Below are positions 502 through 4,356 of a DNA stretch of 8,692 bases, one piece after another. Made by a program: the position numbers and the translations under genes. The stretch's first letter is position 1. Every line of letters begins with the position of its first letter. A model generated the notes under the pieces. That model made no database searches and was not told the DNA's origin. It was given only the letters and a program-made list of their open reading frames with translations. The DNA lies in IMG/VR virus record IMGVR_UViG_2778261591_000007; one strand, written 5' to 3'. Source of the DNA: a virus. Taxonomy: Duplodnaviria > Heunggongvirae > Uroviricota > Caudoviricetes.

Positions 502-1425
502 TCAGTAGTTATGTACTGAAGGAGGTAATTCTTTATTCTTAAGTCTCATCCATGCGGAAAGATTCGCTGGTCCGTCTGGCTCATTAATATCAACATCTCG
601 TGTGTGGTTTATTAAAACGTCTCTCGCCATTCCTATAACATACGAGAACTCATGACCGTAGTCGTAACATCTGCCGGAATAGTTCGATTGAATTTGTTTT
701 AGCGCCGGATACAATTCGCGGAATAATGCCTGTGAGCGGTTGGCATAATCCCATAACCATACGAGGCTGTTTGCTTCTTTTGCAGAAAGCTCGTTGGTTT
801 TCTTCTCTTGTTTGCAGATGAACTCACCTTCAAGCGGAACGCGAGCTGCAAGTGACAGTGCTTCGGTAAACTGCTCCTCACTAATTTCTTTGTACGAACA
901 TCCAAAATGGGATTTCAGTGACGACCACATGGTGATCATCGCCTTAGCCTGTTTTTCTTTTGGCAGAGACTGACCGCGACTCATGACGAGTTGTTTAATG
1001 GCTTCCTGCTGTTCAGTGGTGATTTTACCCTGCAACGCCTTTTTAGCTTTGCGTGGGTTAACTACATGGCCTTTAGTCCAGTACTCATAGAGCACATCGT
1101 CACACTCTTCCTGATACTGGATTACCTTGTCGCGGATTTCAGGGCGGACTTTGTTTGGACTGATGCTGTTCAACCAAGCTGCCAATTTTCGTAAAGCCAT
1201 ACAAATCATGGCTTGCACCCCACCGGCAGAAGGTATGGTGATTTCCACCATACCCTTCGAGAAGCGTTGAGAAATCTTCTTATGTTGAGATTTCCAGTCT
1301 AGCCCCATTCCCTCAACGATAGGTTTCATTGGGGTGTACGGTTCGCCGTTGTGATTGACAACATAAAGCTCTGCGCCGTGGAATGGTACATTGATAGTAG
1401 ATACTGCTGTTGCTATACTTTTCAC
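502..1425 (-). CDS. ant: Phage antirepressor (Ant-like)
   Basis: 307-aa ORF starting at GTG 1425 with an AGGAA Shine-Dalgarno upstream. N-terminus (…INVPFHGAELYVVNHNGEPYTPMKPIVEGMGLDW…) resembles the antirepressor N-terminal domain as I recall it. Size is close to P22 Ant (about 300 aa), and it sits immediately downstream of arc and divergent from mnt, exactly as in P22 immI. Confidence 0.7.
   Translation of the reverse strand: MKSIATAVSTINVPFHGAELYVVNHNGEPYTPMKPIVEGMGLDWKSQHKKISQRFSKGMVEITIPSAGGVQAMICMALRKLAAWLNSISPNKVRPEIRDKVIQYQEECDDVLYEYWTKGHVVNPRKAKKALQGKITTEQQEAIKQLVMSRGQSLPKEKQAKAMITMWSSLKSHFGCSYKEISEEQFTEALSLAARVPLEGEFICKQEKKTNELSAKEANSLVWLWDYANRSQALFRELYPALKQIQSNYSGRCYDYGHEFSYVIGMARDVLINHTRDVDINEPDGPANLSAWMRLKNKELPPSVHNY
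1391..1419 (+). promoter_or_regulatory. Candidate sigma70 promoter (Psar-like) pointing antisense to ant
   Basis: -35 TTGATA (1391..1396), 17-bp spacer, -10 TATACT (1414..1419) on the plus strand inside the 5' end of ant. Predicted start about 1424..1426, at the ant start codon. Confidence 0.4.
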
Positions 1426-1658: not shown

Positions 1659-1811
1659 TCACACCGTTACCCCCTCTCTCTTCAGGCTGTCTATCAGGCG
1701 CTTGATAACCTCTGAGTTAAACGACCTGCACTCTTCCTTTGCCCTGCTACCGATAGCATCCTTTAACGACTGCGGCATCCTTACCAAAATCTTACTTATT
1801 TCTTTCTCCAT
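1659..1811 (-). CDS. arc: Arc-like ribbon-helix-helix repressor
   Basis: 50-aa product MEKEISKILVRMPQSLKDAIGSRAKEECRSFNSEVIKRLIDSLKREGVTV. The core (MPQ…RSFNSEV…KREG) matches the P22 Arc RHH signature (MPQFNLRWPREVLDLVRKVAEENGRSVNSEIYQRVMESFKKEG). Start taken as ATG 1811..1809 with GGAGGG 5 nt upstream; the ORF-track start at 1847 is a TTG without an SD. Confidence 0.8.
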   Translation of the reverse strand: MEKEISKILVRMPQSLKDAIGSRAKEECRSFNSEVIKRLIDSLKREGVTV

Positions 1812-1847: not shown

Positions 1848-1876
1848 AAGATAGCAAAGTGAGTATATCTAGTCAA
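1848..1876 (-). promoter_or_regulatory. Candidate Pant promoter with an inverted repeat in the spacer (possible Arc operator position)
   Basis: Minus strand: -35 TTGACT (plus 1871..1876), 17-bp spacer, -10 TATCTT (plus 1848..1853), about 35 nt upstream of the arc start. The spacer and hexamers carry an inverted repeat AGATA(1849..1853)-N12-TATCT(1866..1870). In P22 the Arc operator lies between -35 and -10 of Pant. Confidence 0.45.
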
Positions 1877-1925: not shown

Positions 1926-2174
1926 ATGGCAAAGGGTGTGTCAATTTCTCCAACTACGGTAAGAATCCCTGAATCTTTACGCGAGGCTCTTTCTGTCAGA
2001 GCATCAAAAAATGGTCGCTCTGTTAACTCCGAGATCGTCATGATTTTGCAAGCCGCGATTGATGAAGATAGGTCGCCAAAGTCAGTTGAGTCATTTGCTC
2101 AGCAAGAAGCTGACAAATTCAAAGAGGCGCTGCTTGAGACGCTAAAGACCATGTATGGTAAGGATGAAAAATGA
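1926..2174 (+). CDS. mnt: Mnt-like ribbon-helix-helix repressor
   Basis: 82-aa ORF, the same size class as P22 Mnt. N-terminal RHH region (TVRIPESLREALSVRASKNGRSVNSEIVMILQAAI) parallels the P22 Mnt motif (…FRMPMEVREKLKFRAEANGRSMNSELLQIVQDAL). AAGGTG Shine-Dalgarno at 1916..1921. Divergent from arc-ant as in P22 immI. Confidence 0.8.
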   Translation: MAKGVSISPTTVRIPESLREALSVRASKNGRSVNSEIVMILQAAIDEDRSPKSVESFAQQEADKFKEALLETLKTMYGKDEK

Positions 2175-2489
2175 AACGTATAGCTATCCTATTGCTCCTG
2201 TGTCTCTCGAGCATAGCTAACGCAGAAAAAAAAATCAGACGATAGCAGTTTTGATGAAATACAAGGCCTCATGATAGCTTCTAAAATGGCTGGTATGTGT
2301 GGTGCAATCAAACAAATGGCAATATTCCAAGAATCTACAAACATGCCGGGTGGGAATGAATTCTTACAGAGATTCCTTACTACAGAGCAAGCAAGGCTTG
2401 GGATGACTCCGCAGCAATTTCTTGAAGCATGTCAGAAATCAATCTCTATTTATACCACCTATTACAATATGAGCTCTGAGGAAAAATAG
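2171..2489 (+). pseudogene. Secreted hypothetical protein gene split by an A9 homopolymer (possible frameshifted or slippage-dependent gene)
   Basis: ATG 2171 overlaps the mnt stop (ATGA) and encodes MKRIAILLLLCLSSIANA-EKKIRR-stop (2243..2245), a typical Sec signal peptide with an AXA cleavage site and almost no mature part. The +1 frame is open from 2217 through 2489 and contains the 72-aa track ORF (2271..2489). The two frames meet at the A9 tract (2226..2234). Removing one A gives a single 105-aa preprotein. Confidence 0.45.
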
Positions 2490-2498
2490 ACAAGGATT

Positions 2499-2684
2499 TC
2501 AACAGCTTCCGCGTACCTGAGTAATTCTGTCGCGGATTTGCTTCTTACGGTGATTTAAGCTGGAGAGCTTGGCTTCTGCTTCTGATATTTGCGCATCAAG
2601 ATCTTTAAGCTCAAGATCTGAAAGTCGCTGGTCAAGCAGGGTTTGATTCAACTCAATGTTGTTCAGACGTTCTTCTATGGTCAT
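2499..2684 (-). CDS. Small hypothetical coiled-coil protein (61 aa)
   Basis: ATG 2684..2682 preceded by a perfect AAGGAG at 7-nt spacing. Product is a heptad-like, charged, Leu-rich helix (…LLDQRLSDLELKDLDAQISEAEAKLSSL…). No family recognised. Expression is doubtful because a terminator hairpin lies immediately upstream. Confidence 0.3.
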   Translation of the reverse strand: MTIEERLNNIELNQTLLDQRLSDLELKDLDAQISEAEAKLSSLNHRKKQIRDRITQVRGSC

Positions 2685-2745: not shown

Positions 2746-3144
2746 CTATCTATCAAGCCATATAACAAAAAATGTCGATCCAAGACGATAACCAACCATG
2801 GCTTTCAAATCATCAAATCTAAAAGCCAAGAAATGATCTACGTCTTCCGTTATATGACTGGGGATACCTGCTTTAATTGCACCCCTTGCAATCTTCTCAA
2901 ATCCAAGCTTATGCCTACCTTGCTGCTTAATATCTGCCCATGTTAGTTGACTTAATCTGTATAATTTATCAGCTAAGCCAGCTTTCTCATCTTTTTGGCA
3001 TTTCGTTATGCAGTGAGAGCTTTGGATGTAACAGAATGAAAATTTCGGTTTCTTTTGATCTGAATTCCCCCCTGACTGCGGCCCTAACTTTAACTTACCT
3101 GTAGATTCAGCAGGGGGGATAATCCTTTTAGATTTTCTTGCCAT
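2746..3144 (-). CDS. Hypothetical basic protein (132 aa), downstream partner of the Panacea-like gene; candidate toxin/effector
   Basis: ATG 3144..3142 lies 4 nt after the upstream gene's stop (TAACGAGATG), suggesting translational coupling. Product has a Lys/Arg-rich, probably disordered N-terminus (MARKSKRIIPPAESTGKLKLGPQSGGNSDQKKPKFSF), a Cys/His cluster (CYIQSSHCITKC) and a C-terminus ending …HFLAFRFDDLKAMVGYRLGSTFFVIWLDR. No family recognised. The longer track ORF (to 3219) starts at TTG and overlaps the upstream gene by 71 nt, so the ATG start is preferred. Confidence 0.5.
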   Translation of the reverse strand: MARKSKRIIPPAESTGKLKLGPQSGGNSDQKKPKFSFCYIQSSHCITKCQKDEKAGLADKLYRLSQLTWADIKQQGRHKLGFEKIARGAIKAGIPSHITEDVDHFLAFRFDDLKAMVGYRLGSTFFVIWLDR

Positions 3145-3148
3145 CTCG

Positions 3149-3592
3149 TTAGTTAATCCGAGTTGCAAAGTACTCTGCCATCTCCTTAGAACTAATTTCA
3201 GAACCACCAACACCCTCAATATAGTTTGATCTCCATGGTGACTCTTCGTGTGTCATGTTCCTCAGTTTCCAGGCAGAAAATTGCCCAAAAACATCCCAGA
3301 CTTCTTCTAATAGCTCTAACTGTTCTTCGCTGAATTTTTCAGCATCAAAAGACTCTGGAGAAGGGATAGCACCATTACCATATTGTTTATAACGGTGATA
3401 AAGCTCAGGGACAACAGGGCCATGCATCCAAGCTTCCATCTTATTCTGAAAAAGAGGCTCGCCAAGCAACGCCAATGAAAAACCCTGAGCATAGTAAACA
3501 AGCTTTTGTAATTTTAAATTAGAGATTGCGTCACCGCTATCCTCGTCACACCGCGACAGGAAGTAGTCGGCGACATCAAAACAAGTAAGCAT
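3149..3592 (-). CDS. Panacea-domain (DUF4065, SocA/GepA-like 'phage-associated protein') antitoxin-type protein
   Basis: Start taken as ATG 3592..3590 with GGAGG 7 nt upstream (the track start is a GTG two codons earlier). The segment DVADYFL…ISNLKLQKLVYYAQGFSLALLGEPLFQNKMEAWMHGPVVPELYHRY matches the DUF4065/Panacea signature as I recall it (T/N-KLQKLLYYAQ…G.PLF…EAW.YGPV.P.VY). Confidence 0.7.
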   Translation of the reverse strand: MLTCFDVADYFLSRCDEDSGDAISNLKLQKLVYYAQGFSLALLGEPLFQNKMEAWMHGPVVPELYHRYKQYGNGAIPSPESFDAEKFSEEQLELLEEVWDVFGQFSAWKLRNMTHEESPWRSNYIEGVGGSEISSKEMAEYFATRIN

Positions 3593-3966
3593 GAACACAC
3601 CTCCATCTTGATAGCCACAGCTAAGTATCCAACTATGTCAAATGTCATTTAATACTATAACAAAGCTATCAGCAATCCTTCGGAGGCTAACTTACAACCA
3701 CTTTAGCGACATGTTTAAACCATTACGTTTCACATTTACTGCATTTTCGCCGAAGTTACCTATAAGGTAATGTCACATTTCCTGCAAGTTTCATGCAATG
3801 TTGAAAAGTGAGCTATTCACTTTTCTATGACACCAAACACCAAAAATAGCACTTTTTGCTAAATCATTCGTCCAAGTTGTGGATGGTTTGTCGTTGACAC
3901 ATTTTCACACACCGCTCCACCAATAAAGTATCATCTGGTATCCTGCTCAAAACTAAGGAGGTTAGT
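3593..3966. promoter_or_regulatory. AT-rich divergent intergenic region with repeated motifs (promoters for the Panacea operon and the secreted-protein gene)
   Basis: 374 bp with no ORF. Direct repeats TCACATTTaCTGCA (3730..3743) and TCACATTTcCTGCA (3772..3785) flank an inverted repeat TTACC-tataa-GGTAA (3756..3770). Related TGTCA/CACATTT elements at about 3635..3650 and 3894..3910. TTGACA at 3894..3899 but no clean -10 at 17-bp spacing. Confidence 0.3.
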
Positions 3967-4356
3967 GTGAAGCGATTTCTTGCTGCTATGTTCTTATTCA
4001 TATCTTTTGGGGCTACAGCAGAGTGCTGGGTCGTTGGAGATATGCGCGGAATAAGCTATTCAGAACGAAATAATTTCCATCCGGAAGAAGATGGTTTTAG
4101 TGGAACATTCATCATTAAGACAAGCGGTGAAGATGCTAGCATCACATATTCTGGGACAGATGCGGGCGGCATGGCTTACAAAGTATTGTCTAAAAACTCC
4201 ATCATAGGAATCGGCGCGAATGGCGAAACTCAACGCGTTATCGACTCATGGGTAATACATCCTACTGGAACAGTTTTAATGTCAAAAACCATTTCCGGTT
4301 ATGGAAATATGGATTCAACCAAAGCTTTTGTTGGAAAAGTAAAAAGAAAATGTTAG
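3967..4356 (+). CDS. Secreted (periplasmic) hypothetical protein, 129 aa
   Basis: GTG start with AAGGAGG 5 nt upstream. N-terminal signal peptide MKRFLAAMFLFISFGATA with AXA cleavage (ATA|E). Mature part is beta-rich and Gly/Ser/Thr-rich, with Cys at both ends (AEC… and …KRKC). Convergent with gp16. No family recognised. Confidence 0.55.
   Translation: MKRFLAAMFLFISFGATAECWVVGDMRGISYSERNNFHPEEDGFSGTFIIKTSGEDASITYSGTDAGGMAYKVLSKNSIIGIGANGETQRVIDSWVIHPTGTVLMSKTISGYGNMDSTKAFVGKVKRKC

What the first reader, a model, noticed from the sequence alone, without database searches (positions are those of the whole stretch)
2171..2489. Secreted-protein gene interrupted at an A9 tract: slippage-dependent expression, phase variation or a recent frameshift
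A perfect signal peptide (MKRIAILLLLCLSSIANA) is coupled to the mnt stop by ATGA, but the frame ends 6 codons after the cleavage site. The +1 frame is open from 2217 to 2489 and contains a 72-aa ORF. The two frames meet at a run of nine A (2226..2234). Losing one A would give a 105-aa secreted preprotein. Runs of nine or more A/T are known sites of transcriptional slippage and of slipped-strand indels. The required shift is +1/-2, so a classic -1 programmed ribosomal frameshift would not restore the frame.
Basis: seen in the sequence. Interest (0 to 1): 0.65.

Follow-up and report, generated by a model that had tools for sequence, protein, structure and literature searches.

The report
Frameshifted prophage gene at A9 tract
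A small secreted-protein gene carried by a P22-like prophage of E. coli is broken by one extra A in a run of A's that arose recently in one sub-lineage; this is a real inherited frameshift allele at a slippery tract, and nothing here points to a programmed recoding device.

Summary
An ORF starts at ATG 2171, overlapping the mnt stop (ATGA). It encodes MKRIAILLLLCLSSIANA plus six residues and stops at 2243-2245. A9 lies at 2226-2234, and the +1 frame is open from 2217 to 2489. Removing one A gives a 105-aa protein identical to a natural protein, P0002.

In 35 of 36 RefSeq complete E. coli genomes with the gene, 14 viral/metagenome contigs and L048, the site is 8 nt long and not a pure A run; all 17 read directly have AAACAAAA (E-T-K-S). 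That allele is intact and is recorded on at least 1000 contigs.

One sub-lineage, marked by K104E, gained a C>A change that made a pure A8 tract. This allele is also intact (45 contigs). On the same local haplotype the tract is A9 in 10 independent assemblies and A7 in one. So A9 is a real allele, not an assembly error.

All A9 copies share one haplotype and lie on short contigs. One origin followed by spread is enough to explain them. The tract is not conserved, and no RNA structure follows it. Programmed slippage and evolved phase variation are therefore unsupported. Low-level rescue by transcriptional slippage at A9 remains plausible.

The protein belongs to phrog_19844, a family of helical periplasmic proteins of unknown function.

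The parts
1926..2174 (+). mnt-like repressor gene (82 aa, Arc/ribbon-helix-helix). Its stop overlaps the start of the broken gene as ATGA, so the two are probably co-transcribed and translationally coupled.
   Evidence: Pfam Arc E=3.2e-10 and FitA-like_RHH E=1.9e-8. It is divergent from arc (1659-1811, minus strand) and followed on that strand by a P22_AR_N/C antirepressor (502-1425). PGAP annotates it as an Arc family DNA-binding protein.
2160..2164 (+). Shine-Dalgarno-like AAGGA, 6 nt upstream of ATG 2171
   Evidence: Read from the sequence.
2171..2245 (+). Truncated 5' ORF of the A9 allele: signal peptide MKRIAILLLLCLSSIANA (2171-2224), then EKKIRR and TAG
   Evidence: Translation. The n/h/c regions and the A-N-A cleavage motif are seen in the sequence. 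M1, K2 and R3 are invariant within the close family, and the hydrophobic N-terminus is retained in the wider family consensus.
2226..2234 (+). A9 homopolymer, the site of the frameshift. It is AAACAAAA in all 17 copies read outside the sub-lineage, A8 in the intact sister allele and A7 in one further allele.
2235..2489 (+). 3' part of the gene, in the +1 frame (open from 2217). It encodes residues 22-105 of the intact protein. Gene callers report only the internal 72-aa ORF 2271-2489, which has a weak AAGG 4 nt upstream of its ATG.
   Evidence: After repair the translation differs from the common allele only at T20K and K104E.
1848..1876 (-). Sigma-70-like promoter match (TTGACT-17-TATCTT) in the arc/mnt intergenic region, in the position of a Pant-type promoter. 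The scan picked up no plus-strand (Pmnt-type) promoter.
   Evidence: This is a consensus match only.

Best explanation
The window carries a heritable frameshift allele of a prophage accessory gene (a 'moron'). The gene sits directly downstream of mnt in the immI region of a P22-like prophage of E. coli and is coupled to it.

In its normal form it encodes a 105-aa preprotein. This has a Sec-type signal peptide and an approximately 87-aa three-helix mature part with two conserved cysteines, which suggests a soluble periplasmic protein. Its function is unknown.

Inferred history:
1. The ancestral site was AAACAAAA (E-T-K-S).
2. A K104E change arose; this intermediate exists as P0004.
3. A C>A transversion (T20K) turned the site into a pure A8 run. 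This allele is still intact (P0002).
4. Strand slippage during replication added one A (the A9 allele in this window) and, separately, removed one (A7).

In the A9 allele, translation from ATG 2171 ends after the signal peptide plus six residues, so the DNA-encoded product is null. The 72-aa internal ORF has no signal peptide and would stay in the cytoplasm.

Shown here: the anatomy, the allele series, the intact state of homologues, and the independence of the assemblies. Inferred: replication slippage as the mutational mechanism, periplasmic location, expression from the mnt transcript in lysogens, and loss of function.

A9 is long enough for RNA polymerase slippage in enterobacteria. A minority of transcripts with A8 or A11 probably still yield some full-length protein. 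I read this as a by-product and not as a designed feature.
For: - Intact homologues. A 318-nt CDS (WP_000820796.1) is annotated at the same place after mnt in other E. coli genomes. Of 36 RefSeq complete genomes with the gene, 35 show exactly one mismatch plus one gap against the A9 query, and only OkiPb01711 is identical to it. All 17 copies read outside the sub-lineage (2 RefSeq genomes, 12 IMG/VR contigs, 2 metagenome contigs, L048) have AAACAAAA.
- Allele series, by exact look-up. ETKS..EKK is on at least 1000 contigs (the counter's cap), ETKS..EEK on 10, EKKS..EEK (A8, intact) on 45, and the 72-aa EEK fragment on 28.
- Tract lengths read directly. All 10 A8 loci L028-L037 are A8 and in frame. 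L019-L026 are A9 and L027 is A7.
- A9 is real. It occurs in the ONT-only complete genome AP042673, in the NCBI draft NONL01000093.1 and in Logan assemblies of separate read sets.
- Near-zero divergence. Within the gene the window differs from L013 only by C59A, the extra A and A310G. After repair the product differs from the common allele only at T20K and K104E. A8 locus L030 shares the A9 haplotype.
- One origin is enough. All A9 loci share one haplotype over 2.1 kb apart from position 1878. All A9 contigs are under 50 kb, while A8 contigs reach over 1 Mb, which suggests related, prophage-rich hosts.
- No recoding signals. The RNA downstream of the tract is not structured (z=+0.57), and the tract is absent from more distant homologues.
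- Protein family. phrog_19844 matches over the full length. There are 257 cluster representatives at E<=1e-3, mostly about 100 aa, with G41, C43, F64, E72 and C87 invariant in the 54 sequences aligned. AF2 gives a three-helix model after an N-terminal hydrophobic helix (pLDDT 74.5).
Against: - The out-of-frame alleles are not rare in the sub-lineage: 28 contigs against 45 intact, or 32 against 98 index blocks.
- A9 sits in at least four different prophage mosaics: different ant/arc/mnt in L019, and different gp16 types in L023 and L025/L026. This could mean a maintained or recurrently generated state and not a dead allele.
- A8 loci L030 and L037 on the A9 haplotype could be revertants as easily as ancestors.
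- Loss of function is not shown. No expression data or read pile-ups were available.
- Relaxed selection on the 3' part cannot be assessed, because the whole region is almost invariant.
Confidence: 0.72

Rival explanations
1. The A tract works as a contingency locus. Reversible replication slippage between A7, A8 and A9 switches the periplasmic protein ON and OFF in lysogen populations, and this switching is selected, for example to vary a surface or exclusion phenotype.
For: - The homopolymer lies early in the coding region, just after the signal peptide.
- Three tract lengths occur on near-identical haplotypes.
- Out-of-frame alleles make up about a quarter to a third of the sub-lineage's records.
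- A9 is found in several prophage mosaics.
- By contrast, the interrupted AAACAAAA allele is intact on at least 1000 contigs.
Against: - The pure tract is a recent product of one substitution, and every copy read outside the sub-lineage lacks it.
- All A9 loci share one haplotype, so one A9 event and one A7 event explain the data.
- The short, similar contig lengths suggest clonal sampling.
- No A10 or in-frame A11/A5 alleles were found.
- From general knowledge: A8-A9 runs in mismatch-repair-proficient E. coli mutate far more slowly than classical contingency tracts.
Confidence: 0.13
2. The split arrangement is a programmed transcriptional-slippage gene. RNA polymerase slips on the T9 template, a set fraction of mRNAs has A8 or A11, and the full-length secreted protein is made at a reduced, tuned dose.
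For: - A9 lies exactly at the junction of the frames.
- Runs of 9 A or T are the length at which slippage becomes evident in many bacteria, and disrupted ORFs restorable by slippage are a recognised class (PMC1088944).
- An A11 run in Citrobacter rodentium tssM1 gives about 20-25% frameshifted product (PMC4256274).
Against: - The out-of-frame arrangement is not conserved. The sister allele is in-frame A8, and every copy read outside the sub-lineage is AAACAAAA and in frame.
- An A7 allele on the same haplotype is also out of frame but shorter than the slippage-prone length, as expected from random indels.
- Restoring the frame needs loss of one A or gain of two, whereas the cited enterobacterial case restores the frame by added A's.
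Confidence: 0.09
3. Sequencing or assembly artefact: the true tract is A8 and the gene is intact.
For: The closest complete genome, OkiPb01711, was assembled from Nanopore R10.4.1 reads alone, with no mention of short reads or polishing (PMC12613899). Long homopolymers are a known weak point of such assemblies (general knowledge).
Against: - The same A9 is present in the window, in NCBI draft NONL01000093.1 and in eight Logan assemblies of separate runs.
- A8 and A7 are resolved in other assemblies of the same haplotype.
- The window differs from AP042673 at 7 substitution sites, so it is a separate record.
Confidence: 0.03
4. Programmed ribosomal frameshifting: +1 P-site slippage of tRNA-Lys from AAA to AAA, or a -2 shift, restores the frame during translation.
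For: The sequence GAA AAA AAA A allows perfect re-pairing of tRNA-Lys in the +1 frame. Lys-tRNA on A runs is shift-prone (general knowledge).
Against: - The next zero-frame codon is AUC, neither a stop nor a recognised rare codon, and there is no Shine-Dalgarno-like stimulator upstream.
- The downstream RNA folds no better than shuffled sequence (z=+0.57).
- The -1 heptamer A_AAA_AAA leads to the wrong frame.
- The arrangement is not conserved.
Confidence: 0.02

Closest known systems
Disrupted ORFs with 9A/9T runs that transcriptional slippage may restore (the class listed by Baranov et al. 2005, PMC1088944; worked enterobacterial example: Citrobacter rodentium tssM1, PMC4256274)
   Same: A run of nine A's on the sense strand lies exactly where two frames of one gene meet. 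An orthologue in other strains is intact. The host is an enterobacterium, where RNA polymerase slippage on such runs is documented.
   Different: The frame here needs one A fewer (or two more), not one more. The split state is confined to one haplotype and is not conserved. No transcript or protein data exist.
Simple-sequence-repeat contingency loci (homopolymer phase variation of surface genes in Haemophilus, Neisseria, Campylobacter; general knowledge)
   Same: The homopolymer lies in the 5' coding region of a secreted-protein gene. Tract-length alleles (A7/A8/A9) on near-identical backgrounds put the gene in or out of frame.
   Different: The tract is short and arose from a single recent substitution. 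Every copy read outside the sub-lineage lacks it. One origin per length explains the data. No within-strain heterogeneity has been shown.
Lysogen-expressed accessory genes of the P22 immI / sieA region (between mnt and gene 16; general knowledge of P22)
   Same: The position is the same: directly after mnt and before the gp16/gp20/gp7 ejection-protein genes. The gene is coupled to a repressor gene that is expressed in the prophage state. The slot holds alternative cargo, a ClpP-like protease gene in other prophages with an identical Mnt.
   Different: There is no match to any named family (Pfam, NCBIfam, PADLOC). It is predicted to be a soluble periplasmic helical protein and not an inner-membrane protein like SieA. 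An exclusion function is only a guess.

Membership tests
phrog_19844 (phage protein family of unknown function) | Full-length match to the family profile | tested here: met
   The repaired 105-aa protein matches positions 1-105 of 105 with E=1.8e-68. As encoded in the window, the gene is split, so neither fragment is a full member.
Sec-dependent secreted/periplasmic protein | N-terminal signal peptide with a positive n-region, a hydrophobic h-region and an AXA signal-peptidase I site, and no lipobox | tested here: inconclusive
   MKR / IAILLLLCLSSI / ANA-E is seen in the sequence. LLLC is not a lipobox, because position -1 is L. The N-terminal hydrophobic helix is conserved in the family. No signal-peptide predictor was available.
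P22-type immI region (mnt-arc-ant) | Divergent Arc-family repressor genes next to a P22-type antirepressor, flanked by the tailspike gene and the ejection-protein genes | tested here: met
   Arc domain in 1926-2174(+) and 1659-1811(-), and P22_AR_N/C in 502-1425(-). P22_gp16 and Inj_translocase lie downstream. A tailspike gene lies upstream in the source genome.
Programmed transcriptional slippage gene | Slippage-prone run of 9 or more A/T at the frame junction | tested here: met
   A9 at 2226-2234 joins the two frames.
Programmed transcriptional slippage gene | The out-of-frame arrangement and the run are conserved among orthologues | tested here: not met
   35 of 36 complete genomes have an 8-nt, non-homopolymer site, and all 17 copies read outside the sub-lineage have in-frame AAACAAAA. 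The sister allele is in-frame A8. Distant homologues have no K-K at this site.
Programmed transcriptional slippage gene | Heterogeneous transcripts and full-length product from the split gene | not testable with these tools
   This needs cDNA sequencing and protein detection.
SSR-mediated phase-variable (contingency) gene | Tract-length polymorphism among closely related strains that changes the frame | tested here: met
   A7 (L027), A8 (L028-L037, L039, L042-L044, L046) and A9 (window, L018-L026) occur on near-identical haplotypes.
SSR-mediated phase-variable (contingency) gene | Repeated independent ON/OFF switches across the phylogeny, or heterogeneity within a strain | tested here: inconclusive
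   All A9 loci share one haplotype, so one origin is enough. A8 twins L030 and L037 may be ancestors or revertants. No read-level data were available.
SSR-mediated phase-variable (contingency) gene | The repeat tract is maintained across the gene family | tested here: not met
   The pure A tract is found only in the T20K sub-lineage.
Programmed ribosomal frameshift site | A slippery site that fits the required shift, plus a stimulatory element (downstream structure, upstream SD-like sequence, or a slow A-site codon) | tested here: not met
   The required shift is +1 or -2. The -1 heptamer gives the wrong frame. The A-site codon is AUC. No SD-like element lies upstream. The downstream 75 nt fold no better than shuffles (z=+0.57).

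The most novel reading that the evidence does not exclude
A single C>A substitution created a new homopolymer switch in a lysogen-expressed prophage gene. The A7/A8/A9 alleles would then be a young contingency locus caught soon after its origin. Expression of a periplasmic protein, possibly involved in superinfection exclusion or envelope modification, would be toggled by replication slippage. The OFF (A9) state would stay leaky through transcriptional slippage. Its presence in several prophage mosaics would be due to selection and not to hitch-hiking.
Probability: 0.1. Interest if true: 0.5.

Novelty: new member of a known kind. Interest (0 to 1): 0.22.

Why it matters
The main value is for annotation and method. 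PGAP left 3137599-3137922 of AP042673 (window 2175-2498) unannotated, with neither a gene nor a pseudogene. Gene callers report a spurious 72-aa ORF there. The allele series ETKS, then EKKS (A8), then A9 and A7 is a clean natural example of one point substitution creating a slippage-prone tract that then generates frameshift alleles. It would make a convenient test case for replication slippage against transcriptional slippage at A8/A9 in E. coli.

Biologically, it points to an uncharacterised and fairly widespread family of small periplasmic prophage proteins coupled to the mnt repressor gene. Natural null (A9, A7) and intact (A8) alleles on isogenic backgrounds could be used to find its function. 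It does not reveal a new mechanism.

Tried and rejected
**Function of the protein**
- Pfam, NCBIfam and PADLOC gave no hit for the protein or for 54 family members.
- A Foldseek search of the AF2 model (pLDDT 74.5) against the PDB found nothing with E<=0.001.
- A profile search against PDB sequences gave only a chance-level Sec62 hit (E=0.13).
- tblastn against the phage collection found only two phages, Salmonella phage S.Kent 1-2-1 and a distant homologue in Kapi1, both uninformative about function.

**Searches for further alleles**
- A pattern scan of GTDB species-representative genomes found no copy.
- No in-frame A11 or A5 alleles are in the protein collection. Short N-terminal ORFs from A7/A9/A10 are not called by gene finders, so that look-up told nothing.
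- I considered using the 72-aa 'EKK' fragment (P0005, 6 contigs) as evidence of frameshifts on the common background. I rejected this because an analogous 71-aa call (P0022, L048) is an intact AAACAAAA gene with a mis-called start.
- P0005 and NZ_CP122775.1 could not be fetched.

**Other points**
- Assembly error was rejected because of the independent assemblies.
- Ribosomal frameshifting was rejected for lack of any stimulator.

Full report
**1. What is in the window**

The window is the immI and DNA-ejection region of a P22-like prophage of E. coli. On the minus strand it holds:
- a P22-type antirepressor (502-1425),
- a 57-aa ORF,
- arc (1659-1811).

On the plus strand lies an 82-aa Arc/RHH repressor in the position of mnt (1926-2174). 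Further right lie:
- a 61-aa ORF,
- a Panacea-domain pair,
- a second small secreted protein,
- the gp16, gp20 and gp7 ejection-protein genes.

The closest public record is the chromosome of STEC O84:H2 strain OkiPb01711 (NZ_AP042673.1). It differs from the window at seven substitution sites and has no indels. NCBI draft contig NONL01000093.1 differs at three of those sites.

**2. The observation**

- ATG 2171 overlaps the mnt stop as ATGA and is preceded by AAGGA.
- The ORF reads MKRIAILLLLCLSSIANAEKKIRR and stops at TAG 2243-2245.
- The nine A's are at 2226-2234.
- The +1 frame is closed by TAG 2214-2216 and then open to 2489. It contains the 72-aa ORF 2271-2489.
- Removing one A gives a 105-aa protein.

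A run of nine A's is not unusual for this sequence: 0.76 are expected, and 82 of 200 shuffles have at least one. The significant point is its position. The repaired protein matches phrog_19844 over its whole length (E=1.8e-68) and is identical to a protein recorded in public genomes (P0002).

**3. Homologues**

In other E. coli genomes a 318-nt CDS (WP_000820796.1, hypothetical protein) is annotated directly after mnt. In OkiPb01711 the corresponding stretch carries no annotation at all.

I used an 83-nt query centred on the tract against RefSeq complete genomes. Of 36 genomes that carry the gene, 35 show exactly one mismatch plus one gap. Only OkiPb01711 is identical to the A9 query.

In total 17 copies outside the sub-lineage were read directly: two RefSeq genomes, twelve IMG/VR contigs, two metagenome contigs and L048. 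In all of them the site is AAACAAAA, coding E-T-K-S, and the ORF is intact. So the ancestral site is an interrupted tract, not a homopolymer. More distant homologues (56-93% identity) have no Lys-Lys at this point.

**4. The allele series**

Exact-sequence look-ups gave these counts:

| Allele | State | Contigs |
|---|---|---|
| ETKS...EKK (common) | intact | at least 1000 (counter's cap) |
| ETKS...EEK (K104E only) | intact | 10 |
| EKKS...EEK (pure A8) | intact | 45 |
| EKKS...EKK | intact | 5 |
| 72-aa fragment with the EEK ending | frameshifted | 28 |

I then read the DNA directly.
- All ten loci fetched for the A8 protein carry A8 in frame. So do five loci fetched through their identical Mnt protein, though at least four of these are the same contigs seen again.
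- Of nine loci fetched for the 72-aa fragment, eight carry A9 and one (DRR275240) carries A7.

Within the gene the window differs from the nearest AAACAAAA copy (L013) only by C59A, the extra A and A310G. After repair, the product differs from the common allele only at T20K and K104E.

The simplest history is: AAACAAAA, then K104E, then C>A giving A8, then +1 giving A9 and -1 giving A7.

**5. Is A9 an artefact?**

The OkiPb genomes were assembled from Nanopore R10.4.1 reads alone (Dorado sup, Hybracter); the paper does not mention short reads or polishing (PMC12613899). Taken alone, an A9 there would be suspect.

However, the same A9 occurs in the window, in an NCBI draft and in eight Logan assemblies of separate runs. 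Other assemblies of the same haplotype resolve A8 and A7. I therefore treat A9 as a real allele.

**6. One origin or many?**

Over about 2.1 kb around the gene, all A9 loci share one haplotype. This includes A at 2932, which is also present in A8 loci L030 and L037. They differ only at position 1878, which is A, G or T.

A9 is found in several mosaics: L019 has a different ant/arc/mnt segment, and L023 and L025/L026 have different gp16 types. All A9 contigs are under 50 kb, and several have almost the same length. A8 contigs reach more than 1 Mb. This pattern fits related, prophage-rich hosts sampled repeatedly.

One A9 event and one A7 event, followed by spread and flanking recombination, are enough to explain the data. 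Recurrent switching is neither required nor excluded, because L030 and L037 could be revertants.

The share of out-of-frame records in the sub-lineage is high: 28 against 45 contigs, or 32 against 98 index blocks. It may be inflated by clonal sampling.

A 71-aa call in another lineage (P0022) proved to be an intact gene with a mis-called start. Short-fragment counts on the common background are therefore not evidence of frameshifts.

**7. Mechanism**

The DNA-level change is what replication slippage at a homopolymer produces. The tract became slippage-prone only after the C>A substitution. This is inference from the allele series and general knowledge.

The A9 allele encodes a signal peptide plus six residues. 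The 72-aa ORF has only a weak AAGG 4 nt from its ATG and no signal peptide.

A ribosomal route is unlikely:
- The -1 heptamer A_AAA_AAA leads to the wrong frame.
- +1 re-pairing of tRNA-Lys is possible, but there is no slow A-site codon and no upstream SD-like element.
- There is no downstream structure (z=+0.57).

A transcriptional route is plausible as leakage. Nine A/T is the length at which selection against slippage becomes evident in many bacteria, and disrupted ORFs restorable by slippage are a recognised class (PMC1088944). An A11 run in Citrobacter tssM1 gives about 20-25% shifted product (PMC4256274).

The split arrangement is not conserved, and an A7 allele coexists with it. I therefore read any such rescue as incidental.

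**8. The protein**

A profile search of 1.84 billion representatives found 257 relatives at E<=1e-3. Most are about 100 aa. In a 54-sequence alignment G41, C43, F64, E72 and C87 are invariant and M1 is nearly invariant.

AF2 on an 8-sequence alignment gives an N-terminal hydrophobic helix followed by three helices (mean pLDDT 74.5). No PDB fold or sequence match was found, and no Pfam, NCBIfam or PADLOC family.

The signal peptide and the two conserved cysteines suggest a disulfide-bonded periplasmic protein. Coupling to mnt suggests expression in lysogens. In prophages with an identical Mnt, the same slot can instead hold a ClpP-like protease gene, so this is an exchangeable cargo position. 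A role in superinfection exclusion or envelope physiology is a guess.

**9. Verdict**

- The 'recent frameshift at a slippery tract' reading is supported.
- The 'assembly error' reading is rejected.
- The 'programmed slippage' and 'evolved phase variation' readings are not supported, although a leaky OFF state and some reversibility remain possible.

This is a new instance of a well-known kind of event, in a gene of unknown function. Interest is low to moderate.

Noticed in passing
window 1878 (arc/mnt intergenic region): Among A9 haplotypes that are otherwise identical, this one position is A, G or T (L021, L023, L025 = G; L026 = T; the rest A). It lies just upstream of the -35 TTGACT of the minus-strand Pant-like promoter match. 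Three states at one regulatory-region site on an invariant background may reflect selection on immI control.
   Followed up: partly
window 2175-2498; NZ_AP042673.1 3137599-3137922: PGAP annotated neither a gene nor a pseudogene here in OkiPb01711. Gene callers in other collections report only the internal 72-aa ORF. In another lineage (L048) an intact gene was called from the internal ATG as a 71-aa protein, so short 'fragments' of this family in databases are partly gene-calling artefacts.
   Followed up: yes
slot directly after mnt (window 2171-2489; loci L038, L040, L041, L045, L047): Prophages with an identical 82-aa Mnt carry a 178-aa ClpP-like protease gene (PF00574) in this slot instead of the 105-aa periplasmic protein gene. 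This is an exchangeable cargo position coupled to mnt.
   Followed up: partly
window 2746-3598 (-): A Panacea-domain (SocA-like antitoxin) protein (3149-3598) overlaps a 139/157-aa ORF (2746-3165/3219) that has a weak PADLOC NsnC hit (E=2e-5). This looks like a toxin-antitoxin or defence pair. The segment is replaced by unrelated sequence in many relatives.
   Followed up: partly
window 3967-4356 (+): A second small protein with an apparent signal peptide (MKRFLAAMFLFISFGATA...), with no Pfam or PADLOC match, lies between the Panacea pair and gp16. It is absent or replaced in some relatives (L023, L025, L026).
   Followed up: no
window 2499-2684 (-) and 2697-2727: A 61-aa coiled-coil-like ORF converges on the broken gene with only 9 nt between the two stop codons. 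No terminator lies between them. A GC-rich hairpin flanked by A and T runs (AAAAAACCCACCTGACGGTGGGTTTTATT) lies upstream of the 61-aa ORF; the terminator scan did not call it.
   Followed up: no
window 242, 2748, 5419, 8648, 8660, 8678, 8688: The window differs from NZ_AP042673.1 at these seven positions (substitutions only), and from NONL01000093.1 at the first three, the only ones within the 7,489 bases fetched. It is therefore not identical to either public record. Four of the seven fall in the last 45 bases.
   Followed up: partly
window 2478-2489: The other change specific to this sub-lineage (A310G, K104E) also lies in an A-rich stretch. Most homologues read GAGAAAAAATAG and the window reads GAGGAAAAATAG. 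Here the change shortens an A run from six to five.
   Followed up: no
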